From positions 12,192-76,191 of the forward strand of contig JBMNMG010000003.1 of assembly GCA_050953245.1 (NCBI GenBank): DNA of 64,000 nt. The letters run 5' to 3'. The notes beneath the pieces are model-generated. The model was not told the DNA's origin. It did no database searches and worked only from the letters and a program-made list of their open reading frames with translations. A program made the translations under genes and the position numbers. The DNA comes from Bacteroidales bacterium (lineage in GTDB: Bacteria > Bacteroidota > Bacteroidia > Bacteroidales > BM520). Shown piece after piece: positions 34,491 to 62,448 of this stretch (position 1 is its first letter; every line of letters starts with the position of its first letter).

Positions 34491-34535
34491 TATTTTTAAA
34501 TTTTTTTGCAATTATAATTATAATGCAATTTTTTT

Positions 34536-34615: not shown

Positions 34616-34765
34616 TTACAAATATACATAAATTTTTTAAGAATAACAAAAAAGCAAAAAAACTTTTTTTATTAAAATAAATATTTTAAATTTGTAAAAA
34701 TTATTTTATAAGTATTAAATAATTTTAACGAAGATTAATTAACTAACCAAATTAAATTTAAAATT

Positions 34766-42061: not shown

Positions 42062-42067
42062 TTCTTT

Positions 42068-46720: not shown

Positions 46721-46874
46721 TTTAAATTTTTATTGAGATAAAAAGTTTGATAAAAATATTTTTTTCAATTCTATTGCAAAGGTACTTAATTATATTAAAA
46801 AACGATAAAATATAATAAACAAATATTAGAGATTATTAATAGAAAAGTACGTTCTAAATAAGATAATCAGAAGT

Positions 46875-47948
46875 TTATTCCTTGATTGGCTCAATTTCTA
46901 TAAAATGACATTTCTCACAAAAAATGTGAGGAGTATTCTTAAACCATAACTTTCGAAAATCTCTATAACTATCTGAATTTAAAACATTTATTACCTTATC
47001 ATCTTTTACATTTCCAAAATTAAGTTCTTTAGGAAAAGGTTTTGCACAGCAGGGAACAACATATCCGTCCCAAGTAATATAAAAATGCGACCATGGGAAA
47101 AAGCACTTTTGAAATTCGTTTTTAGTATAAAAATTATTTTTAGTAACTAAGACTTCGGGAGTTTGCTCAATAATTTTATTTAATTCTTTCATTACAGACA
47201 AAAATTCTTCAGATTTGAAAAAATCATAATACTCCACATCAATATCGGTCACAGAAGTCAAATTAAACAAAGTAAAATCTAAATATGGAATCTCAACTTC
47301 TTTTGCATATTTAACTAATAATGGAAGATGAGTGTAGTTTTCTTTAGTAACTACCATATTTAACATCAGATCAGTTTCGGATTCTTTAGCCATTTTAGAT
47401 AGCTCTCTTAAGTTATTATCTAATAACTTAAAGTTGGATTTCTGTCTGATAGTTTCGTAAACCTCATCAATCCCATCTATGGAAATTTGAATAGTATCAA
47501 TTTTTCCTATAACTTTTGAGACTTTTTCAAGAAAATTTGGTAAAACAGCATTTGTAGAAATAGAAATGATAATACCTTTATTTTTACTTTTAATGTAATC
47601 AACAATTTCTTCAATTTCATTAAAGATAAAAGTTTCGCCCATACCGGTCAGACCAATAGAATCCAAATACGGAGATAACTCATCAATAACTTTTTTTGCT
47701 AAATCAATATCAATGTTTCCTTTATCCATCTTCTTCCCGTAATCGTACATACGTGCGCAAGTAGTGCATTCCAGATTACAAAAATTAGTGAGTTCCAACA
47801 TTATTGTAGAAGGATATGCTACTTTAGTAGATTTAGTTGCTTTTAGATAACCACCTTTTATTTTGTTATTTACATATAAAAAGAAATTTTTGTTTTTGGG
47901 TAAATACTTAATTCTTTTAAATGCTTTTTTTCGTCTTCTTTTATTCAT
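46875..47948 (-). CDS. radical SAM / SPASM-domain protein
   Basis: CNLECTTC (CX3CX2C) cluster. C-terminal CFFPW...GYVVPCC...FCEKC Cys-rich SPASM/twitch-like region. Confidence 0.8.
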   Translation of the reverse strand: MNKRRRKKAFKRIKYLPKNKNFFLYVNNKIKGGYLKATKSTKVAYPSTIMLELTNFCNLECTTCARMYDYGKKMDKGNIDIDLAKKVIDELSPYLDSIGLTGMGETFIFNEIEEIVDYIKSKNKGIIISISTNAVLPNFLEKVSKVIGKIDTIQISIDGIDEVYETIRQKSNFKLLDNNLRELSKMAKESETDLMLNMVVTKENYTHLPLLVKYAKEVEIPYLDFTLFNLTSVTDIDVEYYDFFKSEEFLSVMKELNKIIEQTPEVLVTKNNFYTKNEFQKCFFPWSHFYITWDGYVVPCCAKPFPKELNFGNVKDDKVINVLNSDSYRDFRKLWFKNTPHIFCEKCHFIEIEPIKE

Positions 47949-48022
47949 GAGTATTTTTTATCTTTTATCTTTGCAAAGATACAAATTTTAAATACATCAT
48001 TTAAGAAAGAAAATAAAAGTTT

Positions 48023-49240
48023 ATGAAAGTTTACGTTGCAATCCCTTTACTTAGAGAATTCGAAAATATTAATACACTTTTAGAGCATATTTTCAAGCAA
48101 GATTTTAAAAACTTTCATGTTGTGTTTTGCGTGAATAATCCTGCAGAATGGTATGATTTTGTACCCTCTTCAAAAGGGATGGCATCCCAAGTTAATTTAG
48201 AATCATTCCAAATAAAAGAAGAGGAAAATTCTTATCAAAATTCTTATGAAAAAGACTTAAAAGACAATTTAAAAACTCTTGATTATTTGCGAAGTTTAAA
48301 TAATCCGCTAATAACAATTATCGATAAATCAACAAGAAACAATGCCTTCCCATTGAAAAAATCGGGAGTGGGGTATGCACGTAAGGTTATTATGGATAAA
48401 ATAGCATCAATTGCTGATGATAATGATATTATAATAAGCTTAGACGGAGATACTATTTTTAGTCCCCAATATTTTTCTTCTGTATTGTATCAGTTTGAAA
48501 ATAATAAAGATGCACATGCTATTGCAGTTCCATATTATCATAGGTTGGAAGGCACCGAAGAACAAAAAAAAGCAGCTTTAAGATACGAGATTTATATGCG
48601 CCATTATTTAATTGAGATGCTTAAAATAAATAATCCTTATGCGTTTACTGCATTGGGTGCTGCTATTGCAGTAAAAGTCGGTTCATATAAAAAAAGTTGG
48701 TGGTATAACTCCATATTCGTCAGGAGAAGATTTTTATCTGTTGCAAAAAATAAGGAAACTTGGGAGATTTTGTTATGGTGTGATGAACATGTTTATCCTA
48801 AGGCAAGATTGTCGGATAGAGTGGGGTTTGGTACAGGTCCTGCAATTGATAAGGGTATGGGTGGTGATTGGGATTCTTATCCAATTTATAAAACCGAATA
48901 CTTTGAAAATGTCAAAAAAACTTTTGATCTCTTTCCAACTTTATTTGAAAAAGATGTTGATACGCCATTGACTCCTTTTTTGATGAAGCAATTTAATACA
49001 GATGATGTTTGGTCTCCTTTGCGGAAAAATTATAAACAGATAAATCAATTTGTCAGAGCTTGTGAAACTAAAATAGATGGGTTAAGAATTTTACAGTATT
49101 TAAAAAGTTCTTGTGACGATTTTAATTATTTCCCATATCATAAAGAAAACTTATATTCTGTAAGAGATTATTTATATCAAAAAGAAAATAATTTAAGGAT
49201 AAAGTTTGATGTAAATTTTCATTCTGTTTTTAAATGGTGA
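48023..49240 (+). CDS. family-2 glycosyltransferase, ORF intact but ~23 codons read out of the ancestral frame
   Basis: GT-A N-terminus (VAIPLL...FHVVFCVNN; DGDT). The expected ED motif (GGITPYSSGEDFYLLQKIRKLG) is encoded only in the alternative frame, 48696-48764. Confidence 0.6.
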   Translation: MKVYVAIPLLREFENINTLLEHIFKQDFKNFHVVFCVNNPAEWYDFVPSSKGMASQVNLESFQIKEEENSYQNSYEKDLKDNLKTLDYLRSLNNPLITIIDKSTRNNAFPLKKSGVGYARKVIMDKIASIADDNDIIISLDGDTIFSPQYFSSVLYQFENNKDAHAIAVPYYHRLEGTEEQKKAALRYEIYMRHYLIEMLKINNPYAFTALGAAIAVKVGSYKKSWWYNSIFVRRRFLSVAKNKETWEILLWCDEHVYPKARLSDRVGFGTGPAIDKGMGGDWDSYPIYKTEYFENVKKTFDLFPTLFEKDVDTPLTPFLMKQFNTDDVWSPLRKNYKQINQFVRACETKIDGLRILQYLKSSCDDFNYFPYHKENLYSVRDYLYQKENNLRIKFDVNFHSVFKW

Positions 49241-49354
49241 TTTTTGAAAAGTTTAAAATAATTTAGAAATCCAATCTGAAATAAATCTAAAATAACTACT
49301 TTTGCAATAAGAATAGAAGGCTTTTCAACATCAAATTAATAAGACGATTTATTT

Positions 49355-50272
49355 ATGATTGTAATATTAGGACCAACAGCTACAGGAAAAACAAAATTAG
49401 CAGCTGAGATTGCATATAGGCTAAATGCTGAAATAATTAGTGCCGATTCGCGTCAAGTTTATAAAAATATGACAATTGGTTCCGGTAAAGATTACAATGA
49501 TTATATAGTAAACGGCTTTAAAATTCCATATCATTTAGTAGATATTGTTGAACCGGGATACGAATACAATATTTTTGAGTATAAAAAAGATTTTTTAGTT
49601 GCTTACAATGAAATTTTATCCCGGAATAAAAAAGTTATTTTGTGCGGTGGTTCCGGAATGTATTTAGAGTCTGTTATTTCAAAATATCGATTAGATGAAG
49701 TTCCAATTAACAATGATTTAAGAAAAAATTTATGCAGCAAATCCAATGATGAATTGGTTGAGATGCTATCCCAAATGAAAACACTTCATAATATCACTGA
49801 TAGTGAAGATAGAGATAGAATTATCCGTGCCATTGAAATTGAAACTTATATGAAATTGCATCCTGAAGTTGAAGATAATTACGTAGTTCCATCCTCAATT
49901 TATGGAATAAGAGGTGATCGAGAATTTATCAGACAAAGAATTACAGATAGGCTTTATTATAGATTGGAAAATCAAGATATGGTGGGAGAAGTTGAGAGGT
50001 TATTGGATTCCGGTGTTGATTCTGAAAAGTTGAAAAATTACGGATTAGAATATAAGTTTTTAACTAAATATATCTTAGGTGAAATTCCTTACGAGATGAT
50101 GGTAAAAAAGCTAAATATTGCAATTCATCAATTTTCGAAACGTCAGATGACTTGGTTTAGACGTATGGAACGCAAAGGGTTTAAGATCAATTGGATAGAT
50201 GTAGAATTGCCTCTGGAGGATAAGGTGGAATTTATTTTTAATGATTTAAAGAGTAAAAATCTATTTGAATAA
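49355..50272 (+). CDS. miaA: tRNA dimethylallyltransferase
   Basis: P-loop GPTATGKT, DSRQVYK, QMTWFRR motifs. 305 aa. Confidence 0.9.
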   Translation: MIVILGPTATGKTKLAAEIAYRLNAEIISADSRQVYKNMTIGSGKDYNDYIVNGFKIPYHLVDIVEPGYEYNIFEYKKDFLVAYNEILSRNKKVILCGGSGMYLESVISKYRLDEVPINNDLRKNLCSKSNDELVEMLSQMKTLHNITDSEDRDRIIRAIEIETYMKLHPEVEDNYVVPSSIYGIRGDREFIRQRITDRLYYRLENQDMVGEVERLLDSGVDSEKLKNYGLEYKFLTKYILGEIPYEMMVKKLNIAIHQFSKRQMTWFRRMERKGFKINWIDVELPLEDKVEFIFNDLKSKNLFE

Positions 50273-50320
50273 AACATTGAGAATCATCTTGATTATAAAT
50301 AAAATTTGAGCTAAAAAATA

Positions 50321-52006
50321 ATGAAAATAAAAAATAAAGAAATTCTTGAAAAAGTCGAGATCTTTGATGCGGCAAACGATGGAAATGCTGTAGGTAGAAG
50401 TGATAATGATGTTGTTGTATTTGTTCCGTTTGCAGCACCGGGAGATGTTGTTGACATACAAATTACCCGTAAGAAAAAATCCTTCAAATACGGAAAAATC
50501 ATAAAGTTTCATAAATATTCCGAACATAGGGTAGAACCTGTTTGTGAGCATTACGGCTTATGCGGTGGATGTAAATGGCAGCATATAGATTATAACTTCC
50601 AATTACAATTTAAACAAAAGCAAGTAAAAGACGCATTAGAGCGTATTGGACACATCTCAATCAACAATATGATGCCAATTATTGGCGCAGATGATATTTA
50701 TTTTTATAGAAATAAATTAGAATTTACATTCTGCGATTTTAGATGGATGCCAACAGGAGAATTTGAGAGTGAAGATAAAGAAAACCGTAACTTAAACGGA
50801 TTGGGATTCCATCTTCCAAATATGTTTGACAGAGTAATAAATATTAACAAATGTCATCTTCAACCGGATCCATCTAATAGCATTAGAAATTTCGTAAAAG
50901 AATATGCTGATAATCACAACTTAGAGTTTTACAATATTAAAAAACATACGGGATTTTTACGTAATCTAACTATCCGAATGTCTAATACAGGAGGATTAAT
51001 GGTAGTTGTGATTGTAAATAACAAAGACGATGAAAAATTATTTCCGCTCTTAGATAGCATCCATAAAGAATTTCCTGAAATTACTTCCTTAATGTATTGT
51101 GTAAACTCTAAATTTAATGATGATTATTCGGACCAAGAAGTAATATTATATAAAGGAAACGATCATTTAGTAGAACAAATGGATGATTTAAAATTTATAG
51201 TCGGTCCAAAATCATTTTATCAAACAAATCATAAACAAGCATATAAATTGTATTCCAAAGCCTTAGAGTTTGCTAATTTAACAGGTAATGAAATCGTTTA
51301 TGACTTATACACAGGAACAGGTACCATTGCAAATTTCGTTGCTCCTTACTCCAAAAAAGTAATAGGAATAGAAATTATTGAACAAGCTATTGAAAACGCA
51401 AAAGAAAACGCAAAACTTAATAATTTAAATAATACTTTTTTTGTAAGCGGTGACATGGCAAAAATCCTAACAGATGATTTTATTCAACAAAACGGTAAAG
51501 CAGATGTTGTAATCACAGATCCTCCCCGAGCCGGAATGCATACAAACGTCATAAATCAATTGTTGAAATTAGAGCCTAATAAAATAGTCTATGTTAGCTG
51601 TAACCCTTCTACACAAGCACGAGACATTGAACTTTTGTCAGAAAAATATACAGTTGAAAAAATTCAACCCATAGACATGTTTCCTCAAACAAAACATGTG
51701 GAGACGATAGCTTTATTGTCCAAACTAAATACGAAGCATCACTTAGATATAGAAATAGATGAAGATGAATTATCAGAAATTGACTTTTCAAAAGATGCAA
51801 CTTATGGAGAAATTAAAAAGTATGTGTTAGATAAATATAGTTTAAAAGTTTCAAGCCTATATATTGCACAAGTAAAAAGGAAACACGGTCTAATAGAAAG
51901 AGAAAATTATAATTTTAGTAAGAAAGAAAATCAAAGAGTACCAAATTGTCCAGAAGAAAAAGAAAAAGCAATAGAAGATGCTTTAGAGTATTTTGGAATG
52001 ATTTAA
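50321..52006 (+). CDS. rlmD: 23S rRNA (uracil-C5)-methyltransferase RlmD/RumA family with ~90-aa C-terminal extension
   Basis: TRAM domain, Fe-S Cys cluster (C...CGGCKWQH), SAM motif DLYTGTGT, VSCNPSTQARD, DMFPQTKHVE. The ORF continues ~90 codons past the usual end. Confidence 0.85.
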   Translation: MKIKNKEILEKVEIFDAANDGNAVGRSDNDVVVFVPFAAPGDVVDIQITRKKKSFKYGKIIKFHKYSEHRVEPVCEHYGLCGGCKWQHIDYNFQLQFKQKQVKDALERIGHISINNMMPIIGADDIYFYRNKLEFTFCDFRWMPTGEFESEDKENRNLNGLGFHLPNMFDRVININKCHLQPDPSNSIRNFVKEYADNHNLEFYNIKKHTGFLRNLTIRMSNTGGLMVVVIVNNKDDEKLFPLLDSIHKEFPEITSLMYCVNSKFNDDYSDQEVILYKGNDHLVEQMDDLKFIVGPKSFYQTNHKQAYKLYSKALEFANLTGNEIVYDLYTGTGTIANFVAPYSKKVIGIEIIEQAIENAKENAKLNNLNNTFFVSGDMAKILTDDFIQQNGKADVVITDPPRAGMHTNVINQLLKLEPNKIVYVSCNPSTQARDIELLSEKYTVEKIQPIDMFPQTKHVETIALLSKLNTKHHLDIEIDEDELSEIDFSKDATYGEIKKYVLDKYSLKVSSLYIAQVKRKHGLIERENYNFSKKENQRVPNCPEEKEKAIEDALEYFGMI

Positions 52007-52010
52007 GAAA

Positions 52011-52048
52011 AATAATGCCTCAGATTAGATTCTGAGGCATTATTTTTT
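52011..52048 (+). terminator. intrinsic terminator after rlmD
   Basis: AATAATGCCTCAGA/TCTGAGGCATTATT 14-bp stem plus a T-run. Confidence 0.8.
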
Positions 52049-52076
52049 ACTTATTTTAACGCAGTAAATCATATTA

Positions 52077-52106
52077 TTGAAGGGGATCCACTTTATATGC
52101 TATAAT
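52077..52106 (+). promoter_or_regulatory. sigma70/sigmaA-type promoter TTGAAG-N18-TATAAT
   Basis: Hexamers at 52077-52082 and 52101-52106, ~55 nt upstream of the C-protein start. This is unlike the TAnnTTTG boxes used elsewhere in the window. Confidence 0.45.
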
Positions 52107-52159
52107 TAGGTAGTTAATCTATACATTTAGAAAGGTAAAATATAGAATTGGAGAATGAT

Positions 52160-52381
52160 ATGGGATTTTCATATAACAAATTATGGAAGTTATTAATAGA
52201 TAAAAATATGAAAAAAACAGACTTACAATGTGCAATAGCAACAACACCCAAGACAATAGCAAAAATGGGAAGAGACGAAAATGTAAGTTTAGAAACATTA
52301 GGAAAGATTTGTGAATATTTTCAGTGTGATATTGGAGATATTATTGAATACAGAAGAAAGAATGAAGAGGAAATCAAATGA
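52160..52381 (+). CDS. small XRE-family HTH protein (candidate R-M controller, C protein)
   Basis: 73 aa HTH (KKTDLQCAIATTPKTIAKMGRDENVSLETLGKICEYF). GGAG sits 6 nt upstream of the ATG. ATGA overlap with the first methyltransferase gene. Confidence 0.6.
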   Translation: MGFSYNKLWKLLIDKNMKKTDLQCAIATTPKTIAKMGRDENVSLETLGKICEYFQCDIGDIIEYRRKNEEEIK

Positions 52382-53406
52382 GATTTATTGGTGGCAAAAC
52401 GCTGATTATACCATATATATTAGAATTAATTAAAGAAAAAACAATAGATGTGAAAAGTATATCAGATGTATTTGCTGGTTCAGGAGTAGTTTCTCGTGAA
52501 TTTAAAAATCTCGGATATGATGTTATATCTAACGATTTGATGTATTTTTCATATGTGTTATTAAGAGGAACAGTTGGGATAAATTCTAAATTAGAATTTA
52601 TAAATTTAGGTATATCAGATCCAATAGCATATCTAAATAAACTTACTTTAGAAAATATGAATTTAGATTTAGAGAACTGCTTTATTTACCAAAATTATAG
52701 TCCTAATGGTGGAAGAATGTATTTCACAGAAGATAATGCTTTAAAAATTGATTTAGTTAGGGCTCAGATTGAAAACTGGTATGAAGCTTCTATGATCAAT
52801 GAAGACGAGTATTTTTACTTACTTGCATGTCTTATAGAAGCAGTACCTTTTGTAAGCAATATAACAGGTGTATATGGAGCTTATTTAAAGCATTGGGATA
52901 AAAGGGCATTAAATAATTTAGAAATAAAAAATGTAGATTTATCAATTAATAATTCAGTAGGACAAGCATATAATGAAGATTCTAATAAATTAATTGAAAA
53001 TATAAAAACAGATTTAGCATACTTTGACCCACCATATAATCAAAGACAGTACTTGCCTAATTATCATGTATTAGAAACAATTGCTAAATATGATTCTCCT
53101 AGAATAAAAGGAGTGACTGGATTAAGAGATTATTCTGAACAAAAAAGTGACTATTGTAAAAAAGACTCAGTTTACAATGCTTTTGAAGATTTAATCAAAA
53201 AGACTAATTCGAAATATATTATTCTTAGCTATAATACAGAAGGATTATTATCCCATGATGAGATTATTAGTATTTTAGAAAAATATGGAAAGCGAGATAC
53301 TGTAGACTACAAATTTATCGACTATAGAAGATATAAGAACGCACATACAAATAAAAATAAAAACTTAAAAGAAATATTATATTTTGTAGAAAAGGAGCAG
53401 TTATGA
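52378..53406 (+). CDS. N6-adenine DNA methyltransferase (Dam/D12 class), equivalent to the N-terminal half of M.FokI
   Basis: MRFIGGK start, DVFAGSG (motif I), FDPPY (motif IV). 342 aa. Confidence 0.85.
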   Translation: MRFIGGKTLIIPYILELIKEKTIDVKSISDVFAGSGVVSREFKNLGYDVISNDLMYFSYVLLRGTVGINSKLEFINLGISDPIAYLNKLTLENMNLDLENCFIYQNYSPNGGRMYFTEDNALKIDLVRAQIENWYEASMINEDEYFYLLACLIEAVPFVSNITGVYGAYLKHWDKRALNNLEIKNVDLSINNSVGQAYNEDSNKLIENIKTDLAYFDPPYNQRQYLPNYHVLETIAKYDSPRIKGVTGLRDYSEQKSDYCKKDSVYNAFEDLIKKTNSKYIILSYNTEGLLSHDEIISILEKYGKRDTVDYKFIDYRRYKNAHTNKNKNLKEILYFVEKEQL

Positions 53407-54251
53407 GCGGAAATTATATAAAATCACCATTTAATTACATTGGAAATAAACATAGATTATTAGCTCAAATATTGCCTCTATTTCCTCAAAATATAGACAC
53501 TTTCTATGATGTGTTTTGTGGTGGTTTAGATGTTTCTGTTAATGTTAAAGCGAATAGGAAAATAGCTAATGATATAAACTATTTTGTAATTGAAATTTTA
53601 GAAATGTTTAAAAAGACTGATAGCAAAGAACTTTTACAAGATATTGATGATGTAATAAGTAAATTTAATTTATCTAAAGATAACAAAGAATCATATTATG
53701 AATTTAGAGAATATTATAATAAAAATAAAGACCCGCTTTTGCTATATGTTTTGATGTGTTATTCCTTTAATTACCAGTTTAGGTTTAATTCAAATCATGA
53801 CTATAATAACCCTGCTGGAACTAATAGGAGTAGTTTTAATGAAAATATGAAAAATAGACTTACTTCTTTTAGAGACAAACTTTTCAATATAGAATTTAGC
53901 AATAAGAATTTTAAAGAATTTGATTTTTCTAAAATTAAAAGTTCAGACTTTGTATATTGTGATCCGCCTTATAGAAGCTCTGTAGGTTCATATAATGATG
54001 GTAAAAGAGGATTTGAAGGATGGACTCTTGATGATGATCTAGCCTTATTTGATATATTAGATGAATTAAATGATAGAAATATTAAATTTGCATTATCAAA
54101 TGTATTTTTTAATAATGGATTAGCTAATAAAGAGTTACAAGAGTGGAGTAGAAAATATAAAGTCCACTTGTTAAAGATAAATTACTCAAATAGTAATTAT
54201 CAACGTAATAAGCTAGGCGAAACTGAAGAAGTTTTGATTACAAATTACTAG
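53403..54251 (+). CDS. N6-adenine DNA methyltransferase (Dam/D12 class), equivalent to the C-terminal half of M.FokI
   Basis: NYIGNKHRLL, DVFCGG (motif I), CDPPY (motif IV). 282 aa. AAGGAG SD and ATGA overlap. Confidence 0.85.
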   Translation: MSGNYIKSPFNYIGNKHRLLAQILPLFPQNIDTFYDVFCGGLDVSVNVKANRKIANDINYFVIEILEMFKKTDSKELLQDIDDVISKFNLSKDNKESYYEFREYYNKNKDPLLLYVLMCYSFNYQFRFNSNHDYNNPAGTNRSSFNENMKNRLTSFRDKLFNIEFSNKNFKEFDFSKIKSSDFVYCDPPYRSSVGSYNDGKRGFEGWTLDDDLALFDILDELNDRNIKFALSNVFFNNGLANKELQEWSRKYKVHLLKINYSNSNYQRNKLGETEEVLITNY

Positions 54252-54259
54252 GAGGAAAT

Positions 54260-56033
54260 ATGGCAGAAAGAACATTGGGTTGGATACAAAATCCATCAAG
54301 TTTTGAAAATTTAAAAAATGTAGTTTCTGTTTTTGATAAAAATACTGATATGTATAAGGAAATCTTAAATACTAAACTTCCTAAATTAGTAAAAGATTTA
54401 GAATTACAAAATAAACTTATTTCAGAAATGAAAAAAGATCCACTTGAAATGGACTATGTTTTATTAAAAGGTCATGGTATAAAATCAGGTCAGAAAAGAG
54501 CAGATGCAGGGTGTAGTGGTATTGTTCAAGCTGCCATTACAACACAAGGTGGTAGAGCTTACACAGATGATTGGACTGCTGATGGATTTTTAAGATGGGG
54601 AATATCCATAGGACTTTTAGATTATGATACAGAAAAAGATACTGTCTCTATAACACAACTGGGAAAGGATTTTGTTTACTCAGATTCTGAAGATTTGGAT
54701 AAAGAAATATTAACTACTGCATTTTTATCATATCCACCAGCAGTAAGAATTTTGACTTTATTAGAAAATGGTGAGCATTTAACTAAGTTTGAATTAGGAA
54801 AACAACTTGGTGGACTTGGAGAAGCTGGATTTACCTCTATACCTCAAGATTTATATATCCAAGCAATAGAACTAGCAGCTGATAAAGACAAAGCAAGTAT
54901 TCGTTCAAATACAGAAGGTTCAGCTGATAAGTATGCTAGGATGATTTCTGGCTGGTTATCTAAAGTCGGGCTTAGTTCAAAGAATTGAAAAAGAAGTTTC
55001 TACTAAGATAGGTAGATGTCGAGTATAAAGTTAAAATTGGTCATTCTTTTAGAATTACATTAAAAGGAATCAAAGAATTAAAAAGGGCAAGGGGTATATC
55101 ATCTTCATTCCAAAGACTGATAAAATAGTGTATTGGCAAATGTTAGCAACTAAGGGCAAGGACAGAGACTATATTAGAAATAGACGTGGACATATAATTA
55201 ATTCAATTACTAATAGAGATAGAACCTTAGAAGATATAAAAGTTTATCTGTCAGAAAATGATATAAAAGAAAGCATTGCAACAATAGAAGATGAATTAAA
55301 AGTTATTGAAGCGATAGGATTATCAGTTAAACATGGTAGGAATGGATATTCGATAGATGATAATATAATTAAATTGGCAATTCCAAGAACAAAGATTTCT
55401 AAGACTAATGTATTGGAATTAAAAGACAAAGTTAGGGATAGATTGAAATATGTTGATCACAGATATCTCGCACTAATTGATTTAGCTTATGACGGAACTG
55501 CTAATAGAGATTTTGAAATTCAAACAATAGACCTTTTAATTAATGAACTTAAGTTTAAAGGGGTTCGTCTAGGAGAAAGCAGAAAACCAGATGGAATTAT
55601 ATCTTATAATATTAATGGCGTAATTATAGATAACAAGGCTTATTCTACTGGATATAATCTACCAATTAATCAAGCAGATGAAATGATTAGATATATCGAA
55701 GAAAATCAAACTAGAGATGAAAAAATAAATTCAAATAAATGGTGGGAAAGCTTTGATGAAAAAGTTAAGGATTTCAACTATTTATTTGTATCATCTTTCT
55801 TTAAGGGAAACTTTAAGAATAATTTGAAACATATAGCTAATAGAACTGGTGTAAATGGTGGAGCTATTAATGTAGAAAATTTATTGTATTTTGCAGAAGA
55901 ATTAAAAGCTGGAAGATTATCTTATATTGATTCATTTACGATGTATGATAATGATGAGATATATGTAGGAAATATTATGGATTATAGTAATGTAAAAATT
56001 GCTGCTGAAGAAGAAAGTCATTATTCGATTTAA
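54260..56033 (+). pseudogene. FokI-family type IIS restriction endonuclease, three frameshifts
   Basis: The N-terminal ORF aligns by eye to the FokI recognition domain (GWIQNPSSFENLK...YPPAVRILTLLE...SADKYARMISGWL). The C-terminal ORF aligns to the FokI linker and cleavage domain (SRKPDG...IIDNKAY...GYNLPINQADEMIRYIEENQTR). Frame path is 2>0>1>0 between 54970 and 55126. Confidence 0.85.
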
Positions 56034-56083
56034 TAACAAGGATTATTTTTATTAAAAATACAATCTAAGTGGAGGATTAAATT

Positions 56084-57724
56084 TTGAAATACGCTCAATA
56101 TTACAAATGTGCTTTGCAAGTAAATCCAAGCGCATACTCTCAATATCGTGGGAAAGAAAAAATGGATGAATCAGAATATAATACACAAATCTTAAATATA
56201 TGTAAAGAAGAAAATATTAGAGTAGTTGGTTTAGCAGATCATGGCTCAGTTGAAAGAGCAGAAAATCTAAGAAAACTTCTAACAGATAATGGTATTTTAG
56301 TTTTTCCAGGATTTGAAATATCTACGGCAGAAAAAATTCATATAGTTTGTTTATTCTCTCCAGAAACAGATGCTAATGAGCTAAACCGTATTCTAGGACA
56401 ATTAGGAATGCCAGAAATAAAAAATGGTACAGAAAAAAGTAATTTATCCTGTATTGATATAGCTAAAAAGATAGCTGAAAATGATGGATTTTGGTATGCT
56501 GCACACATAACTAGTGATAATGGAATTTTAAAGCTAGGTCAATTACAACATGTGTGGACAAATGAATTATTAATAGCGGCTCAAATTCCAGATAGTGAAG
56601 AAAAAATAGATCCAAACTATAAAAATATAATTAAAAATAAAGAACCTCATTATAAAAGAAAAAACGTTGTTGCTTATATAAATGCTAAAGACATTTGCGA
56701 TCCAATGGATTTGAAACTTGAAACTGCAACCACACTTATTAAAATGTCTGAATTAAACTTTGATTCATTTAAGTCTGCATTTACAGATCCAACATCAAGA
56801 ATTAAGCTAAATAGTTCTATAAAAACAAAATATAAAAGTTATATCTCAAGAATATGTGTAAAAGGCGGTTATTTAGATGGGCTGGAGCTAGATTTCTCTG
56901 ATGAATTAAATACTATAATAGGTGGAAGAGGTACCGGAAAATCGACTTTAATTACTTTTATAAGATATGTATTAGGAAACTACTCATATGACAAAGAATT
57001 AGAAAAAGAAATTGAAGACATGATTAAAAATAATTTAGGGACATCTGGAGAAATAAATATCTACTTATCTTCATATTCACTTAATGGGCAAAAATATAAG
57101 TTAATAAAAAGATATAATCAAAATACTACTGTATTTAATGAAGATGGTAGTTTGTCTGAATTAACTATCACAGATCTTTTGCCTAAGATAGAAATTTATG
57201 GTCAAAATGAATTAATCGACGCAATTAAATCTTCAGAAACAATTACTAATATTGTTAAACGTTTAATAAAAATTGATGAGAATATTTTAAAAGAAAAGAA
57301 AATGTTCTATAAAGAATTGAAAGAGAACACCCAAAAGATAATCTCCATTAACGAGGAAATAAATAAATTAGGAGCAACACGTCAGGCATTATTAAATTTA
57401 GCAAATGATATAATTAGGCTAAATGAAGAAAATAAAATTTTAGGTTTAAGTAAAGAAGAACTTTCTTTTTATCATGCAATCAGTAATCCTGAGAATATTT
57501 CTGACTTTTATACAAATAAAGAGTTAATAGACTTAACACAAGACCTGACCCAGACTATTTCAAAGGAGATGACCTCCGACTGGATGATGAGAGAATCTGG
57601 CATAGCAAATATGAGAAGAACAGTAAAAAGGCTGTTGGCAGATTATAACTATCCTGAAAACCATCGAAGTGATATTATTGATCTAATAGTTGAGCAAGCA
57701 GAGTATTTTGATATAGGAGCATAA
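56084..57724 (+). CDS. chimeric ORF: PHP-like domain plus Walker-A ATPase N-lobe fused to an HsdR C-terminal (DUF3387-like) tail
   Basis: N-terminus has YKCALQVNP...GLADHGS...GFEIS..KIHIVCLF (PHP-like), then Walker A GGRGTGKST and a coiled coil. The last ~110 aa (LGLSKEELSFYHAI...DWMMRES...VKRLLADYNYP...VEQAEYF) match the type I HsdR C-terminus. No Walker B or signature region is visible. Confidence 0.55.
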   Translation: MKYAQYYKCALQVNPSAYSQYRGKEKMDESEYNTQILNICKEENIRVVGLADHGSVERAENLRKLLTDNGILVFPGFEISTAEKIHIVCLFSPETDANELNRILGQLGMPEIKNGTEKSNLSCIDIAKKIAENDGFWYAAHITSDNGILKLGQLQHVWTNELLIAAQIPDSEEKIDPNYKNIIKNKEPHYKRKNVVAYINAKDICDPMDLKLETATTLIKMSELNFDSFKSAFTDPTSRIKLNSSIKTKYKSYISRICVKGGYLDGLELDFSDELNTIIGGRGTGKSTLITFIRYVLGNYSYDKELEKEIEDMIKNNLGTSGEINIYLSSYSLNGQKYKLIKRYNQNTTVFNEDGSLSELTITDLLPKIEIYGQNELIDAIKSSETITNIVKRLIKIDENILKEKKMFYKELKENTQKIISINEEINKLGATRQALLNLANDIIRLNEENKILGLSKEELSFYHAISNPENISDFYTNKELIDLTQDLTQTISKEMTSDWMMRESGIANMRRTVKRLLADYNYPENHRSDIIDLIVEQAEYFDIGA

Positions 57725-57959
57725 TGATGTTTTAAGAAAATTAATCAACGATTCAATCAGATCTAAACCTGCAAGTAAACTCTTGATAAATTTTCTGTTA
57801 AAAAAGAAACTGATAGTATTCCTTTTGAAATAAAAAAATTAGGGATATTAATATACCTGATAGACTGGATAAATTAAAATCACTTGCAATGAAAATGATT
57901 AAAAAAACACCTTTTTTGTTTATTTCTTGTGTATTATAAAATAAGTATTATATTTGTAG

Positions 57960-58038
57960 TAATAATTAGTAAGAGTCTTTTTAAACGAGAGCGTGGATTG
58001 TTGTTCCACGAGGCAGTTTAAGAAGACTCTTATTTTTT
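57960..58038 (+). ncRNA. family C small RNA cassette
   Basis: TATATTTG -7 box at 57949-57956. Long hairpin TAAGAGTCTTTTTAAAC/GTTTAAGAAGACTCTTA encloses CGTGGA/TCCACG, followed by a T6 run. Confidence 0.4.
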
Positions 58039-58154
58039 ATTCCAATATCAGATTATTGCTGTTAGAAATACTATTAAAACAGAAATTGTTCTCAACTTTT
58101 TGTTAGCGATAAAATATTCTTTTGTTTATTTGAAAAATATTATTATATTTGTAA

Positions 58155-58231
58155 TGCTGTAAAAAGCCGAAGGCGGCGCGAGTAACGTCAAGCTTAGCCG
58201 GGGAGGTGGATGTAATGTCCACCTTTTTTTT
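58155..58231 (+). ncRNA. family B small RNA cassette, copy 1
   Basis: TATATTTG -7 box at 58144-58151. GCCGAAGGCGGC hairpin. Terminator GGTGGA/TCCACC plus a T8 run. Confidence 0.45.
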
Positions 58232-58272
58232 GTTTTCACTTGTTTATTTGAAAAATATTATTATATTTGTAA

Positions 58273-58348
58273 TGCTGTAAAAAGCCGAAGGTGGCGCGAG
58301 TAACGTCAAGCTTAGCCGGGGAGGTGGATGTAATGTCCACTTTTTTTT
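58273..58348 (+). ncRNA. family B small RNA cassette, copy 2 (118-bp tandem duplicate)
   Basis: -7 box at 58262-58269. Near-identical to copy 1, with one C>U change that keeps a G-U pair in the first hairpin. Confidence 0.45.
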
Positions 58349-58588
58349 GATTAAAAAAATACTTTTTTTTGTGTTAACTCGTTCCCATTATTATTCTTTT
58401 CGAATATTTCCTTACTATATTTCACAGATTTTTTTTCAAACAAAATAACAGTCATTTAGCTTATTGGTTATAAAATCTGTTTTCTATTAACTGTTCTTCT
58501 TGACAATAATTTGTTATTAAATTGATTTCTTTCATTTTTAGCAAATCAAGAATAATAATTTTACATCCTTGTTTTATTGTTTCTGAGA

Positions 58589-59077: not shown

Positions 59078-61219
59078 ATGATGCAGGATAATACTGTAAA
59101 TATAATATTTAAGATAAGTGGTAATGCAACTGAAGCGATGCAGGACATTACAAAGCAATCTGCAGAAGTTGCAAAGTCCATTAATAAAACTGCAGGGTTT
59201 TTTGACAGCTTGGGTGGTAAAATACTTGTTATAAATCAAATTACAGCAGGTTTACAAAACTTAAGCAATGCATTTAACAGTGCCATTCAACCGGGCATTG
59301 CCCTTAATTCGCAACTATTAGACTTGTCGGCAATAGCTAATGTTGCAGGTGAAGATCTTAAACGTATTGAGGGCTATGCACGTGAAAGTGCTATGGCTTT
59401 TGGACTTGATGCGGCACAATCAGTAGAAAGTTATAAGTTACTACTATCACAACTGTCACCGGAGCTTGCAAAAGCACCTAAAGCACTTAAGACAATGGGT
59501 GAAAATGTCGCAGTGCTAAGCAAAACAATGGGCGGTGATACAACAGCGGCTGCAGAAGTATTGACAACCGCAATGAATCAGTTCGGAGTAAGCTTAAAAG
59601 ACCCTACAGAAGCTGCAAAGACAATGGCAAACATGATGAATATTATGGCTGCTGCAGGGCGTGAAGGCTCTGCAGAGTTGCCGGCAATTAAAGTTGCATT
59701 GGAACAAGCAGGTATGGCAGCAAAGGCTGCAAACGTATCTTTCGAGGAAACCAATGCAGCAATACAAGTACTTGACAAAGCAGGCAAGAAAGGCAGTGAA
59801 GGTGGTGTTGCACTTCGTAACGTGTTAAACACACTTGCAAGAGGTCGTTTTTTACCTAAAGATGTGTTAGAGGAACTGCAAGCTGCAGGTGTTAATGTAA
59901 GTAGTTTAACGGATAAAACAAAAACACTTACAGAGAGATTGCAGGTGTTACAACCGGTACTTAAAGATGATGCACTGTTTTCAAAACTATTTGGACGGGA
60001 AAACACCAATGCGGCAATGGCACTTGTACAAGGAGTGTCGCAGGTTGAAAAATATACAGAAGCAATTACCGGAACAAATACAGCATTTGAACAAGCAGAT
60101 ATTATTATGGATTCCTATGCAGAAAGACAAAAGAGAGTTCAGGCACGTTTTCAAAACATGAAAATATCAATATTCAATGCAACCGGAAGTCTGGGTATTT
60201 GGGTAGATACTATAGCAAAATCGGCAATACCACTTGCCCAGCTTGTACCACTCATTTATGGAGTTAACTCTGCCACACGTAAAATAACTGCATCTCTTGT
60301 TGCAACAAACGCAAGTATAGTAGGCACGGGAGGAATGTTTAAGTGGTTAGGTGCAACTGCAAAAAGAGTTTGTACACAGATATCTGTTGCAATTATGAAT
60401 ATTCCTATAATTGGTTGGATAGCGGCAATTATAGCAGCAATAATAGCAGTATCGGCAATATTGTGGAATAAAAGTGAGGGTTTTAGAAAGATAGTATTAG
60501 GTGTTTGGGAGGTTATTAAGGGCATAGGACAGTATCTGCTACAGTTGGGTAAAAAGATATTTAGTAACTTTATTGAAGGCTTTAAAAACCTATTAAATGC
60601 ACTTAAAACAGTGTTTAATGCTATTGTAGGTTTTATTAGGAAGATCAAAGACTTCTTTGTAAGAATGTTTAATTGGGTCACTGAAAAGCTAAAAAACCTA
60701 ACCGGTTTCTTAAAGCGTGTATTTGCTCCGGTAATTAAGTTTTTTGAATCATTATGGGATTATATAAAAGCAATATTCAATAACATCTCACAATTTATGG
60801 GAAAACTGTTTAATCCGGTTATTAAGCTATGGAATAAGATGACCGGTAAAACAGTAGAGTTATATACCACAGGAGCAGCTAAAGGGTCAGAGAGTTGGAA
60901 TAAGAAAAACAAAACTCAAGAGGATCAACCCTTAAGTACGTTAGATACCTTAGATGCTATAGGTGGACTTACTGAATCCGCAACAAGCTTTGGAGGTGAT
61001 TATGGTTTTAGTAACAATCTTTCAGAATCCGGTCTTGAAATAACATCAGGAGGAAAGCAGATCAAGAATGTAAACATAAGCATTGGATCACTTATTGGGA
61101 CAAACACAAACATATTCTCATCGTCAAAAGATGATCCAGCTTCTGCAGATGATTTTATGAGCAAATTAAGTAATGCATTGATGCAAATAGTAAACGATGC
61201 AAATTATGTAGTAGAATAA
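59078..61219 (+). CDS. phage tail tape measure protein (TP901-type core)
   Basis: 713 aa, Ala/Gly-rich helical N-terminal core (AIANVAGEDLKRIEGYARESAMAFGLDAAQS...), central hydrophobic segment (IIGWIAAIIAAIIAVSAILW). Visibly higher G+C than the flanks. Confidence 0.8.
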   Translation: MMQDNTVNIIFKISGNATEAMQDITKQSAEVAKSINKTAGFFDSLGGKILVINQITAGLQNLSNAFNSAIQPGIALNSQLLDLSAIANVAGEDLKRIEGYARESAMAFGLDAAQSVESYKLLLSQLSPELAKAPKALKTMGENVAVLSKTMGGDTTAAAEVLTTAMNQFGVSLKDPTEAAKTMANMMNIMAAAGREGSAELPAIKVALEQAGMAAKAANVSFEETNAAIQVLDKAGKKGSEGGVALRNVLNTLARGRFLPKDVLEELQAAGVNVSSLTDKTKTLTERLQVLQPVLKDDALFSKLFGRENTNAAMALVQGVSQVEKYTEAITGTNTAFEQADIIMDSYAERQKRVQARFQNMKISIFNATGSLGIWVDTIAKSAIPLAQLVPLIYGVNSATRKITASLVATNASIVGTGGMFKWLGATAKRVCTQISVAIMNIPIIGWIAAIIAAIIAVSAILWNKSEGFRKIVLGVWEVIKGIGQYLLQLGKKIFSNFIEGFKNLLNALKTVFNAIVGFIRKIKDFFVRMFNWVTEKLKNLTGFLKRVFAPVIKFFESLWDYIKAIFNNISQFMGKLFNPVIKLWNKMTGKTVELYTTGAAKGSESWNKKNKTQEDQPLSTLDTLDAIGGLTESATSFGGDYGFSNNLSESGLEITSGGKQIKNVNISIGSLIGTNTNIFSSSKDDPASADDFMSKLSNALMQIVNDANYVVE

Positions 61220-61230
61220 ACAGTGTTAAG

Positions 61231-61752
61231 ATGATAAGAATAACAACAGGAGACCAAACCATAGATATACATACTTATGACAAAGCAAACTTACGTGTAC
61301 CAACAGTTGCGGGATACCCGCAACATATTATGAGTATTCCTAAGAACAACGTGATATTACGCAATAAAAACAACGATACTATTGAATTTTTTGACGTAAA
61401 AATTGATGTAACTAAAGCAAACAATATTGTAAGTACACCACTTGTAAACAGACATGGTGAAATCAAAGAATTTATACAACAACAAGATTATACAATCAAA
61501 TTTAGTGGTAACATCATAGAAGAACGTGGAATATTCCCGTATGAAGAGTTAAAGAAGTTAAATGACATCTTAAATGAAGAGGACAGTTTAGATGTATCAA
61601 GTGAATACTTAAATTGCTTTGGAATTACTAAAATTGCATTAGAAAAAGCTAATTTTAAACAAAGTAGTATTAAATATTATAATTTAATGCCTTTTGAATT
61701 AAATTTTAAAAGCGATATGGATTATGAGTTTTTAATAATGGATAATCAATAA
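61231..61752 (+). CDS. hypothetical protein in the distal-tail-protein position
   Basis: Starts 12 nt after the tape measure stop. 173 aa. Assignment rests on position only. Confidence 0.35.
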   Translation: MIRITTGDQTIDIHTYDKANLRVPTVAGYPQHIMSIPKNNVILRNKNNDTIEFFDVKIDVTKANNIVSTPLVNRHGEIKEFIQQQDYTIKFSGNIIEERGIFPYEELKKLNDILNEEDSLDVSSEYLNCFGITKIALEKANFKQSSIKYYNLMPFELNFKSDMDYEFLIMDNQ

Positions 61753-62279
61753 TCTTTATATTTTTCGTAATAATCAATGTTAGAATCATTTACATATACT
61801 TTTAAATCAGGAATGCTGTTGTCTATTTCAATGGTAAAATCAGCACCATATGAAGCAAACCTCCATGTACAACATGGATCGGAGCTTGATATTCCAGCAG
61901 CTGTTTCAACAACAATGTCTGCTTCAGATTCATATTGGACAAAACTAACGCTAAAATCTGCACCATATTCAACTATTTCAACCCAACCTTTTAGTGGTAT
62001 TCCTTTATATGTACAGTATTCAAGGTCTAAGTCCGGTCGTGGTCCATCTGATTTGATTTCTATGATTTCTTCATCATTGCTTTTATTGCGAAAGCTATTA
62101 GGTTCGACGATTTCAATGATAGTTCTACCATTTAATTTAAAATATTTCATTAGCACGCCATCTACAATCTTTATGGAATCATATACAATACCAGAATCAT
62201 CATTTGGATCTGTAACTTGTGCTTGTAAAGCTATTGGAAGTAAAATAAGAGTTGTAAAAAATAAAATGAAACGTTTCAT
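61746..62279 (-). CDS. hypothetical secreted protein with internal YGADF repeats
   Basis: Start moved to MKRFILFFTTLILLPIALQAQ (signal peptide). Repeated (V/A)xYGADF(S/T)(V/I) segments. The opposite-strand 170-aa ORF is Ser-rich and looks antisense. Confidence 0.5.
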   Translation of the reverse strand: MKRFILFFTTLILLPIALQAQVTDPNDDSGIVYDSIKIVDGVLMKYFKLNGRTIIEIVEPNSFRNKSNDEEIIEIKSDGPRPDLDLEYCTYKGIPLKGWVEIVEYGADFSVSFVQYESEADIVVETAAGISSSDPCCTWRFASYGADFTIEIDNSIPDLKVYVNDSNIDYYEKYKDY

Positions 62280-62448
62280 AATAGGGTAATTTAACATGTT
62301 AATTTTAAGATGTAACGTACAAATATCATGCAAAAGTGGCAAAATAATTACATTTAATTATGTTAATGAGATAATTGTAAATAAAAAATGGGATTCTATC
62401 CAATTTGCAAACACTTTAAATTCAGGCTATTAACTTGCAATTTCAAAT

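What the first reader, a model, noticed from the sequence alone, without database searches (positions are those of the whole stretch)
56084..57724. Chimeric ORF: PHP-like/Walker-A ATPase head fused in frame to the C-terminal tail of a type I HsdR
Seen:
- Residues 1-~250 carry PHP-like motifs, with the first HxH degenerated to ALQVNP. Later motifs are GLADHGS and GFEIS..KIHIV.
- Walker A GGRGTGKST lies at ~283, followed by a coiled coil.
- From ~aa 440 the sequence is the recognisable HsdR C-terminal module (LGLS.EE.SFY.AI...DW..RES....R..VKRLL..Y.YP......V.EQAE).
- There is no Walker B or ABC-signature half, no helicase motifs, and no hsdM or hsdS nearby.

Knowledge: PHP plus SMC/RecF-like ATPases of ~900+ aa occur in defence islands, often beside type I R-M. 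I believe NCBI labels one such family TrlF-like, but I am not certain.

Inference: a deletion removed the 3' half of the ATPase gene and nearly all of a downstream hsdR, fusing the ends in frame near 57330-57400. The less likely alternative is a genuine new domain combination that uses the HsdR tail as an adaptor.
Basis: partly seen in the sequence, partly recalled or inferred. Interest (0 to 1): 0.6.

Follow-up and report, generated by a model that had tools for sequence, protein, structure and literature searches.

The report
Leftover gene fusion from restriction-system swap
This open reading frame is a scar: the front half of a TrlF defence ATPase gene is joined to the last 116 codons of a type I restriction gene. 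The join dates from when a mobile FokI-like restriction module displaced the resident type I system in a Bacteroidales genome, so it is an ordinary decay product, not a designed protein.

Summary
ORF 56084-57724 (546 aa) has three parts:
- a PHP-fold domain;
- the N-lobe of an SMC/Rad50-like ATPase with Walker A at aa 280-288;
- the last 116 residues of a type I HsdR.

Identity to intact 857/858-aa TrlF genes stops abruptly at nt 57372, inside codon 430. The break sits on a TTAGG (Leu-Gly) that HsdR relatives also carry at that position.

The TrlF half is the right end of a mobile module: HTH, two Dam-like methylases, a FokI-like nuclease, then TrlF. The module occurs with identical gene spacing in four or more unrelated host contexts at 90-100% nucleotide identity. 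None of those copies is followed by hsdR.

Conspecific strains are 99.8-99.9% identical up to the rlmD 3' end. They lack the module and carry hsdM at this very site. That HsdM belongs to the same M-S-R operon family that the tail retrieves.

The fusion is therefore the fossil right-hand junction of a type I to type IIS replacement. It lacks the signature motif, Walker B and H-loop, so ATPase activity is very unlikely.

The identical junction in four assemblies is one event in one lineage, not conservation of a design. Interest is low.

The parts
56084..57724 (+). Chimeric 546-aa ORF (NCBI MGI6718315.1, annotated 'type I restriction enzyme endonuclease domain-containing protein')
56084..57372 (+). 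trlF-derived segment, codons 1-430: PHP-fold domain (about aa 1-245), SMC/Rad50-like ATPase N-lobe (about aa 253-395) and the start of the coiled-coil helix
   Evidence: 88% aa identity to intact C. ureolyticus TrlF, ending sharply at aa 430. DNA homology to L004, L040 and L044 ends at 57370-57372. Fold matches.
56921..56947 (+). Walker A GGRGTGKST (aa 280-288)
57368..57372 (+). TTAGG (Leu-Gly), the probable microhomology at the illegitimate junction; the junction is 57372|57373
   Evidence: trlF parent reads ...AAATTAGG|TGAAGAA and the window reads ...AAATTAGG|AGCAACA. Most HsdR relatives (10 of 12 whose sequence is shown at that point) have L-G immediately before the (S/T/M)(V/I)R(Q/E)AL stretch. 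The parental hsdR DNA itself was not recovered, so this is inferred.
57373..57724 (+). hsdR-derived tail, aa 431-546 plus the stop; equals the last ~116 residues of a ~1035-aa HsdR (part of the T1RH-like_C domain)
   Evidence: PF11867, E 5.8e-26. PADLOC REase_I positions 855-1021 of 1029. 75% identical to HsdR 918-1035 of L010. No nucleotide differences among four assemblies.
57725..58151 (.). Chromosomal flank downstream of the hsdR remnant, 100% identical in all chimera-bearing contigs; it ends at a repeated sRNA-like element where all three Logan contigs break
52148..52381 (+). HTH_26 controller-like gene, first gene of the mobile module
52378..53406 (+). D12-class (Dam-like) N6-adenine methyltransferase M1
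53403..54251 (+). D12-class N6-adenine methyltransferase M2
54260..56033 (+). FokI-like type IIS restriction gene, frameshifted in this strain into 54260-54988 and 55128-56033; intact at 589 aa in L001, L002, L040 and L044
51703..52006 (+). Left end of the module: a foreign 3' extension fused in frame to native rlmD at the conserved CATGTGGA (H-V-E) site, making RlmD 561 aa instead of the native 473 aa

Best explanation
The ORF is a by-product of defence-island turnover, not a designed protein.

Proposed history:
1. The ancestral Bacteroidales chromosome read rlmD - hsdM - hsdS - hsdR - flank.
2. A mobile module entered at the 3' end of rlmD. It comprises an rlmD 3' extension, an HTH gene, two Dam-like methylases, a FokI-like type IIS nuclease and trlF. 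The same module circulates among Firmicutes-like hosts, Campylobacter ureolyticus and this Bacteroidales.
3. An illegitimate join at a TTAGG microhomology linked trlF codon 430 to roughly codon 918 of hsdR. It removed the 3' half of trlF, any remaining element DNA, hsdM, hsdS and about 90% of hsdR.

Timing of the join is open. I favour a later deletion (roughly 55%) over a single homology-facilitated illegitimate recombination during entry (roughly 30%).

The join happened to be in frame. The result is a 546-aa ORF co-transcribed with the R-M operon.

The product lacks the C-terminal lobe of the ABC/SMC head (signature motif, Walker B, D- and H-loops). It should therefore be unable to hydrolyse ATP and probably cannot fold a complete head. 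At most the PHP domain might retain residual activity.

Later, homologous recombination with foreign alleles of the module swapped the interior of the cassette between otherwise identical strains. Homology ends at the junction, so the junction stayed fixed.

Shown: the two ancestries, the breakpoint, module mobility, hsdM at the site in conspecifics, and the mosaic cassette. Inferred: the exact order of events, the microhomology on the hsdR side, and loss of function.
For: 1. Breakpoint. Identity to intact TrlF (858 aa) runs through aa 430 and collapses at aa 431. DNA homology to three independent module copies ends at 57370-57372.

2. Mobility. The module occurs with identical gene spacing in four or more host contexts: the window, C. 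ureolyticus, and two Firmicutes-like contexts. TrlF is 857/858 aa in the other hosts and none has hsdR after it. Nucleotide identity to the window is 90.6-95.6% overall and 100% over 55574-57072 against L040.

3. Conspecific strains. L050 and L055 are 99.8-99.9% identical to the window up to the rlmD 3' end (BLAST alignment ends at 51730; first mismatch at 51703). They have a native 473-aa rlmD followed by hsdM on the same strand.

4. Same operon family. Among loci retrieved using the tail alone, every one with a tail at least 55% identical and enough upstream DNA also encodes an HsdM 78-90% identical to L050's (83-90% where the tail is at least 69% identical). Where its start lies within the locus, that hsdM begins 4.4-5.6 kb upstream on the same strand. 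Loci with tails under 45% identical do not. The operon order is M-S-R.

5. Position in HsdR. The tail aligns to HsdR residues 918-1035 of 1035, and L-G precedes the junction in both parent families.

6. One event. Four assemblies share an identical junction, tail and flanks. There are no differences from 57275 to 58151, and 46200-51800 is essentially identical (two mismatches in 200-nt blocks near 50200-50600). The cassette between them is a 76-100% mosaic.

7. Missing motifs. The signature, Walker B and H-loop motifs are absent.

8. Precedent. Comparable HsdR-tail remnant fusions exist elsewhere: HsdM::tail, AAA Walker A::HsdR C-terminus, tail::serine recombinase, and an internal hsdR deletion. 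Independent trlF truncations also occur (P0139).

9. Support for a two-step history. L051 keeps only the first ~133 nt of the rlmD extension and then diverges, showing that other deletions have hit the same inserted element.
Against: - The parental hsdR was not recovered. The closest tails are only 69-76% identical, and the L050 and L055 contigs end inside hsdM. The claim that the tail is the 3' end of that particular type I operon is therefore strong inference, not observation.
- The ORF is intact in all four assemblies.
- The tail differs at only 1 of 48 sites that are invariant in its relatives, no more than functional homologues do. There is no positive sign of decay, although a recent event predicts the same result.
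- dN/dS of 0.06 in the TrlF part looks like purifying selection. The divergence (dS 0.44 between strains with identical flanks) must have been imported from intact alleles, so the ratio is uninformative.
- The C-terminus of PADLOC candidate PDC-S15 resembles the tail, so this helical module may be reused in other proteins.
Confidence: 0.85

Rival explanations
1. Functional neo-fusion. The HsdR C-terminal helical module acts as an adaptor. It would tether the TrlF PHP nuclease domain to a type I methylase/specificity complex encoded elsewhere in the genome, or it would act as a decoy that sequesters such a complex.
For: - The ORF is intact and in frame in four assemblies.
- The tail keeps 47 of 48 family-invariant residues.
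- The AlphaFold model shows one continuous helix (aa 399-448) across the junction, followed by a helical tail.
- The PHP domain is complete and 100% identical to that of an intact allele.
- The C-terminus of PADLOC candidate PDC-S15 matches tail aa 463-539, hinting that this module occurs outside HsdR.
Against: - It is a single event in one near-clonal lineage.
- No other TrlF::HsdR fusion was seen among 1707 TrlF-type hits or the 150 best of 1468 tail hits.
- The local hsdM and hsdS were deleted in the same event.
- Half of the ATPase head is missing. By established knowledge of Rad50/SMC heads, it needs both lobes to fold and hydrolyse ATP.
- The linked restriction gene is already frameshifted in this strain, so the cassette is decaying.
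Confidence: 0.07
2. Simple local deletion between two adjacent genes of one island. An intact trlF lay directly upstream of hsdR, and only the sequence between them was lost.
For: The junction is a clean two-parent join. TrlF homologues do sit at the 3' end of restriction-type operons.
Against: - In conspecifics the gene next to rlmD is hsdM, and the operon order is M-S-R. hsdM and hsdS must therefore have lain between trlF and hsdR.
- None of the seven contexts examined with an intact trlF has hsdR downstream.
Confidence: 0.05
3. Assembly artefact. A metagenome assembler wrongly joined a trlF-bearing contig to an hsdR-bearing contig.
For: The module is shared at up to 100% identity between organisms that may co-occur. 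Contigs break at repeats nearby.
Against: - The identical junction appears in four assemblies from at least two sequencing projects, made by at least two pipelines: the NCBI MAG and Logan contigs from DRR784981, DRR784979 and ERR13909482.
- Shared sequence at the join is only about 5-11 nt, far below assembler k-mer sizes.
- Both flanks are Bacteroidales chromosome. A species-specific repeat occurs at 58122-58352 and again at 34528-34662.
Confidence: 0.02

Closest known systems
TrlF family AAA-like ATPase (NCBIfam NF045780), e.g. the Campylobacter ureolyticus 858-aa protein P0005
   Same: Residues 1-430 are 88% identical. Shared features are the same TTG start, a PHP-fold domain with the family-invariant CALQVNP / GLADHG / GFEI..AEKIH motifs, Walker A, and the same upstream FokI-like R-M genes.
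   Different: Residues 431-858 of TrlF are missing: most of the coiled-coil insert and the whole C-lobe with the LSKGQQ signature, Walker B and H-loop. The score is 244.5 bits against a 350-bit cut-off.
Type I restriction enzyme R subunit (HsdR) of the HindI-like family with a T1RH-like_C C-terminus (PF11867), e.g. the 1035-aa HsdR in L010
   Same: The last 116 residues are 75% identical to HsdR 918-1035, and 47 of 48 family-invariant positions are retained.
   Different: There is no HSDR_N nuclease, no SF2 motor, no domain 3, and only the last ~40% of the C-terminal domain (profile 190-326 of 329). The NCBI name 'type I restriction enzyme endonuclease domain-containing protein' is therefore misleading.
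Ppl, a single-gene anti-phage protein with PHP and ATPase domains (PADLOC PDLC02208, NCBIfam NF042955)
   Same: It has the same PHP-plus-ATPase plan as intact TrlF. PADLOC Ppl matches P0005 at 138 bits and the chimera at aa 71-383. Ppl is described as an uncharacterised single-gene defence with an ATPase domain and a PHP domain (PMC11482910).
   Different: TrlF is a distinct family: 90.9 bits against a 1000-bit Ppl cut-off. The chimera has only the N-terminal half.
Remnant fusion ORFs from deletions in R-M loci, and homology-facilitated illegitimate recombination (PMC3240628)
   Same: There is a clean two-parent junction at a short shared sequence, with one side of the insert anchored in a conserved gene (rlmD). 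Analogous HsdR-tail fusions exist in the database: P0230, P0219, P0179 and P0177.
   Different: Here both parents and the pre-replacement arrangement can be reconstructed from conspecific strains. The mechanism (one step or two) is not established.

Membership tests
TrlF family AAA-like ATPase (NF045780) | Full-length match to the 944-position model at or above the curated 350-bit cut-off | tested here: not met
   244.5 bits; only profile positions 1-516 are covered.
TrlF family AAA-like ATPase (NF045780) | N-terminal PHP-like domain with the family-invariant motifs, plus Walker A | tested here: met
   C9-N14, D52-H53, E78, H86, H141 and G280-T288 are invariant with seven intact members. PHP fold confirmed.
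TrlF family AAA-like ATPase (NF045780) | C-terminal ABC/SMC lobe: signature LSKGQQ, Walker B LIIDQPEDNLD, H-loop ATHNANIP | tested here: not met
   Absent; the alignment shows gaps from the column after aa 430 onwards.
Type I restriction R subunit (HsdR) | HSDR_N nuclease domain and SF2 helicase/translocase motor (ResIII, SWI2_SNF2) | tested here: not met
   No such Pfam hits. tblastn with a 1035-aa HsdR matches only its C-terminal part, residues 802-1035. The stretch upstream of the aa 430/431 breakpoint is low-identity helical similarity.
Type I restriction R subunit (HsdR) | Complete T1RH-like_C domain (PF11867, 329 positions) | tested here: not met
   Only profile 190-326 is matched, and true homology covers only about the last 116 residues.
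Ppl anti-phage protein | Match at or above the curated cut-off (1000 bits) across the PHP and ATPase domains | tested here: not met
   90.9 bits; the PADLOC Ppl match is partial, aa 71-383.
PHP (polymerase and histidinol phosphatase) superfamily | PHP alpha/beta-barrel fold | tested here: met
   Foldseek matches: EndoQ 5zb8 (E 1.6e-6), RNase AM PHP domain 7ug9 (TM 0.57 normalised by target length), PsfC 7rty, and Pol III alpha/PolC PHP domains. The model has pLDDT mostly 84-98 over aa 1-240, with three 10-residue blocks at 76-83.
PHP (polymerase and histidinol phosphatase) superfamily | Canonical metal-binding motif I (HxH) and a Pfam PF02811 score above the gathering cut-off | tested here: not met
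   LQVN replaces HxH, as in every intact TrlF aligned. PF02811 scores 16.8 bits against a 26.4-bit cut-off.
Product of homology-facilitated illegitimate recombination | A homologous anchor on one side and a microhomology junction on the other | tested here: inconclusive
   The right junction sits at TTAGG, shared with trlF and inferred for hsdR. The left junction sits at a conserved CATGTGGA in rlmD, with about 83% similarity of donor-type rlmD over 51578-52006. A site-specific att site or a two-step history fits equally well.

The most novel reading that the evidence does not exclude
The fusion could be a young functional innovation. The HsdR C-terminal helical module, which by general knowledge mediates R-subunit docking onto the M2S1 methylase, would recruit the TrlF PHP nuclease to a type I methylase/specificity complex encoded elsewhere in the genome. 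That would make an ATP-independent, sequence-targeted nuclease, or alternatively an anti-restriction decoy.
Probability: 0.05. Interest if true: 0.6.

Novelty: new member of a known kind. Interest (0 to 1): 0.22.

Why it matters
The ORF itself is a decay product and is mis-named in the public annotation.

Its value is as a dated, base-pair-resolved fossil of one restriction system displacing another at a chromosomal hotspot, the 3' end of rlmD. The incoming FokI-like R-M plus TrlF module is shared at 90-100% nucleotide identity between Bacteroidales, Campylobacter and Firmicutes-like hosts.

It also shows how in-frame remnants inflate the apparent domain-architecture diversity of defence islands. 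Automated surveys of "new domain combinations" need to filter such cases out.

Tried and rejected
1. Search for the parental hsdR. Nothing above 76% identity turned up in the word-indexed protein search with the tail, the GTDB genome scan or the JGI metagenome scan. A search with the conspecific HsdM fragment gave at most 89% identity, and its best contigs are different hosts.

2. dN/dS as a test of function. It is 0.06 in the TrlF part. I rejected it as evidence because strains with 100% identical flanks differ by dS 0.44 there, so the divergence was imported by recombination from intact alleles.

3. Leave-one-out test for decay in the tail. One change at 48 invariant sites is no different from functional homologues. 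This does not discriminate between a recent deletion and selection.

4. Other proteins of about 546 aa carrying the tail. They proved to be HsdR fragments or unrelated remnant fusions. P0139 (544 aa) is a plain truncated TrlF.

5. Literature on 'TrlF'. Nothing relevant was found.

6. Rfam on the downstream non-coding stretch. No credible match.

7. The sigma-70 promoter scan was at background level.

8. Lookup of contigs carrying the downstream tape-measure gene. They start inside or after the repeat and do not bridge to an hsdR.
Full report
**The object**

ORF 56084..57724 (+ strand, TTG start, 546 aa) is real. The window is part of a 178,864-bp contig of an NCBI 'MAG: Bacteroidales bacterium' with 29% G+C. 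There the ORF is MGI6718315.1, named 'type I restriction enzyme endonuclease domain-containing protein'.

**Two ancestries**

Profile searches split the protein in two.
- NCBIfam TrlF_fam_ATP covers aa 2-468, aligned to the first 516 of 944 profile positions. The score is 244.5 bits, under the 350-bit cut-off.
- Pfam T1RH-like_C (the HsdR C-terminal domain) covers aa 407-542, aligned to profile 190-326 of 329, E 5.8e-26.
- PADLOC agrees: REase_I positions 855-1021 of 1029, and Ppl for aa 71-383.

An AlphaFold model built on 61 sequences has pLDDT 83. It shows:
- an alpha/beta domain at aa 1-245;
- a beta-rich P-loop lobe at aa 253-395;
- one long helix, aa 399-448, running straight through the junction;
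- a helical tail.

Foldseek matches the first domain to PHP-fold enzymes (EndoQ, RNase AM PHP domain, Pol III alpha/PolC PHP). It matches the second to SMC, Rad50 and RecF head N-lobes.

An alignment with seven intact TrlF proteins shows two things.
- The 'degenerate' first motif CALQVNP is invariant across the family, so it is not decay of this copy.
- The chimera lacks everything after TrlF residue 430, including LSKGQQ (signature), LIIDQPEDNLD (Walker B) and ATHNANIP (H-loop).

**The breakpoint**

Against the intact 858-aa TrlF of Campylobacter ureolyticus (P0005), identity is 88% through ...SINEEINKLG (aa 430). It vanishes from aa 431.

At DNA level the trlF parent reads ...AAATTAGG|TGAAGAA and the window reads ...AAATTAGG|AGCAACACG. 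The junction is therefore 57372|57373, inside codon 430. Three independent module copies (L004, L040, L044) all lose homology at 57370-57372.

The tail aligns to residues 918-1035 of a 1035-aa HsdR (L010, 75% identity). Most HsdR relatives (10 of 12 shown at that point) have Leu-Gly immediately before the equivalent of aa 431. TTAGG is therefore the likely microhomology. The hsdR side of that statement is inferred.

**What the TrlF half belongs to**

trlF is the last gene of a compact module: an HTH_26 gene, two D12-class methylases, a 589-aa FokI-like nuclease, then TrlF of 857/858 aa. Gene spacing is identical in every copy. The module was found in four host contexts:
- the window's species, after rlmD;
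- C. ureolyticus, after a 379-aa U5-methyltransferase gene;
- a Firmicutes-like contig, after a 507-aa U5-methyltransferase gene;
- another Firmicutes-like genome, next to dinB.

Members of the same 90% protein cluster come from Streptococcus anginosus and Neofamilia massiliensis. None of the four contexts examined has hsdR after trlF.

More distant TrlF proteins sit directly after a type III R-M (P0021) and after BREX brxL (P0058). TrlF thus appears as a 3' rider on diverse modification-based defences. PADLOC and NCBIfam relate it to Ppl, an uncharacterised single-gene PHP+ATPase defence (PMC11482910).

**What the HsdR tail belongs to**

Contigs carrying the window's exact MiaA protein reveal conspecific strains.
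- L050 and L055 are 99.8-99.9% identical to the window up to the rlmD 3' end (BLAST alignment ends at 51730; first mismatch at 51703). They have a native 473-aa rlmD followed about 0.5 kb later, on the same strand, by hsdM (HsdM_N + N6_Mtase). Both contigs end inside that gene.
- The module-bearing strains diverge from them right after a conserved CATGTGGA (His-Val-Glu) at 51702|51703. From there rlmD continues into a foreign 3' extension that accompanies the module in the Firmicutes-like host and, in decayed form, in Campylobacter.

A consistency test ties the tail to that type I system.
- Among loci retrieved with the tail alone, every one with a tail at least 55% identical and enough upstream DNA encodes an HsdM 78-90% identical to L050's (83-90% where the tail is at least 69% identical).
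- Where its start lies within the locus, that hsdM begins 4.4-5.6 kb upstream on the same strand.
- Loci with distant tails (below 45% identity) do not.
- The operon order is M-S-R.

The ancestral arrangement was therefore rlmD-hsdM-hsdS-hsdR, and the chimera's tail is what remains of hsdR. The intact parental hsdR itself could not be recovered.

**One event, then cassette swapping**

The same 546-aa protein (P0001, 95% identical) occurs on three Logan contigs from other samples.
- Against L001 the window is essentially identical over 46200-51800 (two mismatches near 50200-50600) and has no differences from 57275 to 58151.
- Between about 51800 and 57274 it is a 76-100% mosaic.
- Within the ORF, the TrlF part differs at dS 0.44 (dN/dS 0.06), while the tail has zero differences.
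- Block-wise, the window's 55574-57072 is 100% identical to the Firmicutes-like L040. L001's 56573-57322 is 99% identical to C. ureolyticus.

So a single junction was inherited, and the interior of the cassette was later replaced by homologous recombination with foreign alleles. Crossovers necessarily stop left of 57372, where homology ends.

This makes the low dN/dS uninformative about selection on the chimera. It also shows that 'same architecture in several assemblies' is not independent conservation.

In the window's strain the FokI-like gene is already frameshifted.

**Mechanism**

Two histories fit.
1. The element integrated at the rlmD 3' site, and a later deletion ran from trlF codon 430 to about hsdR codon 918. 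Three points favour this:
   - the identical left-end site in three phyla;
   - recombinase genes downstream of trlF in L040;
   - L051, a conspecific that keeps only the first ~133 nt of the extension before diverging, which shows another deletion in the same insert.
2. A one-step homology-facilitated illegitimate recombination, anchored in rlmD and resolved at the TTAGG microhomology. The concept is described in PMC3240628.

I weight these about 55:30.

Either way the ORF is a by-product. Without the C-lobe, an ABC/SMC head cannot form its composite ATP site; this rests on established knowledge of Rad50/SMC heads. The PHP domain is intact and could retain some activity.

**Is it functional?**

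Nothing requires it to be. Similar HsdR-tail remnants are easy to find: HsdM::tail, AAA Walker A::HsdR C-terminus, tail::serine recombinase and an internally deleted HsdR.

The tail shows no excess change at invariant sites (1 of 48). That fits either a very recent event or maintenance, and the near-clonal flanks favour recency.

A small residual possibility (about 5-7%) is that the tail acts as an adaptor to a type I methylase. The C-terminus of PADLOC candidate PDC-S15 resembles it.

**Verdict**

The finding is an ordinary remnant fusion and is mis-annotated in the public record. It is of modest interest as a base-pair-resolved record of a type I system being replaced by a mobile type IIS+TrlF module at an rlmD hotspot.

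Noticed in passing
window 58122-58235 and 58240-58352 (+); third copy 34528-34662 (-): Three copies of a ~114-nt unit: two in tandem at 97% identity and a third at ~81%. Each has a Bacteroidetes-type promoter motif (TTTG ... TAtaTTTG), then a ~75-nt stretch ending in a GGTGGATGTAATGTCCACC hairpin plus a U-run. It looks like a small-RNA gene family. There is no Rfam match. All three Logan contigs carrying the chimera break at 58151, where the repeat starts.
   Followed up: partly
window 57962-58045 (+): A very stable hairpin (-35.5 kcal/mol, z -8.2) lies about 240 nt downstream of the chimera's stop. It is preceded by the same promoter-like motif and followed by a T-run. It could be a terminator or another small RNA.
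   Followed up: partly
window 54260-56033 (+): The FokI-like type IIS restriction gene is frameshifted into two ORFs (54260-54988 and 55128-56033) by small indels near 54971, 55015 and 55106. Both methylase genes are intact. The gene is whole (589 aa) in L001, L002, L040 and L044, and is independently split in C. ureolyticus.
   Followed up: yes
window 50321-52006 (+), junction at 51702|51703: rlmD is itself chimeric. The native conspecific gene encodes 473 aa. Here a foreign 3' extension that travels with the mobile module is fused at a conserved CATGTGGA (H-V-E), giving 561 aa. Conspecific contigs show rlmD products of 473, 503 and 568 aa, so the rlmD 3' end is an insertion and replacement hotspot.
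   Followed up: yes
window 52040-57372 versus L040, L004, L044: The ~5.3-kb HTH-M1-M2-FokI-like-TrlF module is shared between a Bacteroidales MAG, Campylobacter ureolyticus and Firmicutes-like contigs at 90.6-95.6% nucleotide identity, with blocks of 100% (55574-57072 against L040). This implies very recent inter-phylum exchange and mosaic recombination.
   Followed up: partly
L066/L067 (P0021) and L068-L070 (P0058): More distant TrlF homologues sit immediately downstream of a type III R-M (Mod+Res, on a mobilisable element with a relaxase) and of BREX brxL. TrlF looks like a recurrent 3' accessory of modification-based defence operons.
   Followed up: partly
proteins P0230, P0219, P0179, P0177 (representative library): Other remnant fusions involving the HsdR C-terminus: HsdM::HsdR-tail, AAA_15 Walker A::HsdR domain 3 plus C-terminus, HsdR-tail::serine recombinase, and an internally deleted HsdR.
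   Followed up: partly
window 59078-62342: A phage tail tape-measure gene (59078-61219, PhageMin_Tail) is followed by DUF6046 (61231-61752) and, per the homologous JGI loci L059/L060 (99.3% and 97.4% identical), a Septknot-domain gene on the minus strand (61746-62342). No other phage genes lie upstream. This may be a prophage remnant or a tail-like module next to the defence hotspot.
   Followed up: no
window 42065-42295: Short internal direct repeats of ~86-88 nt at 85-88% identity were seen as secondary BLAST hits between 42065-42174 and 42208-42295.
   Followed up: no
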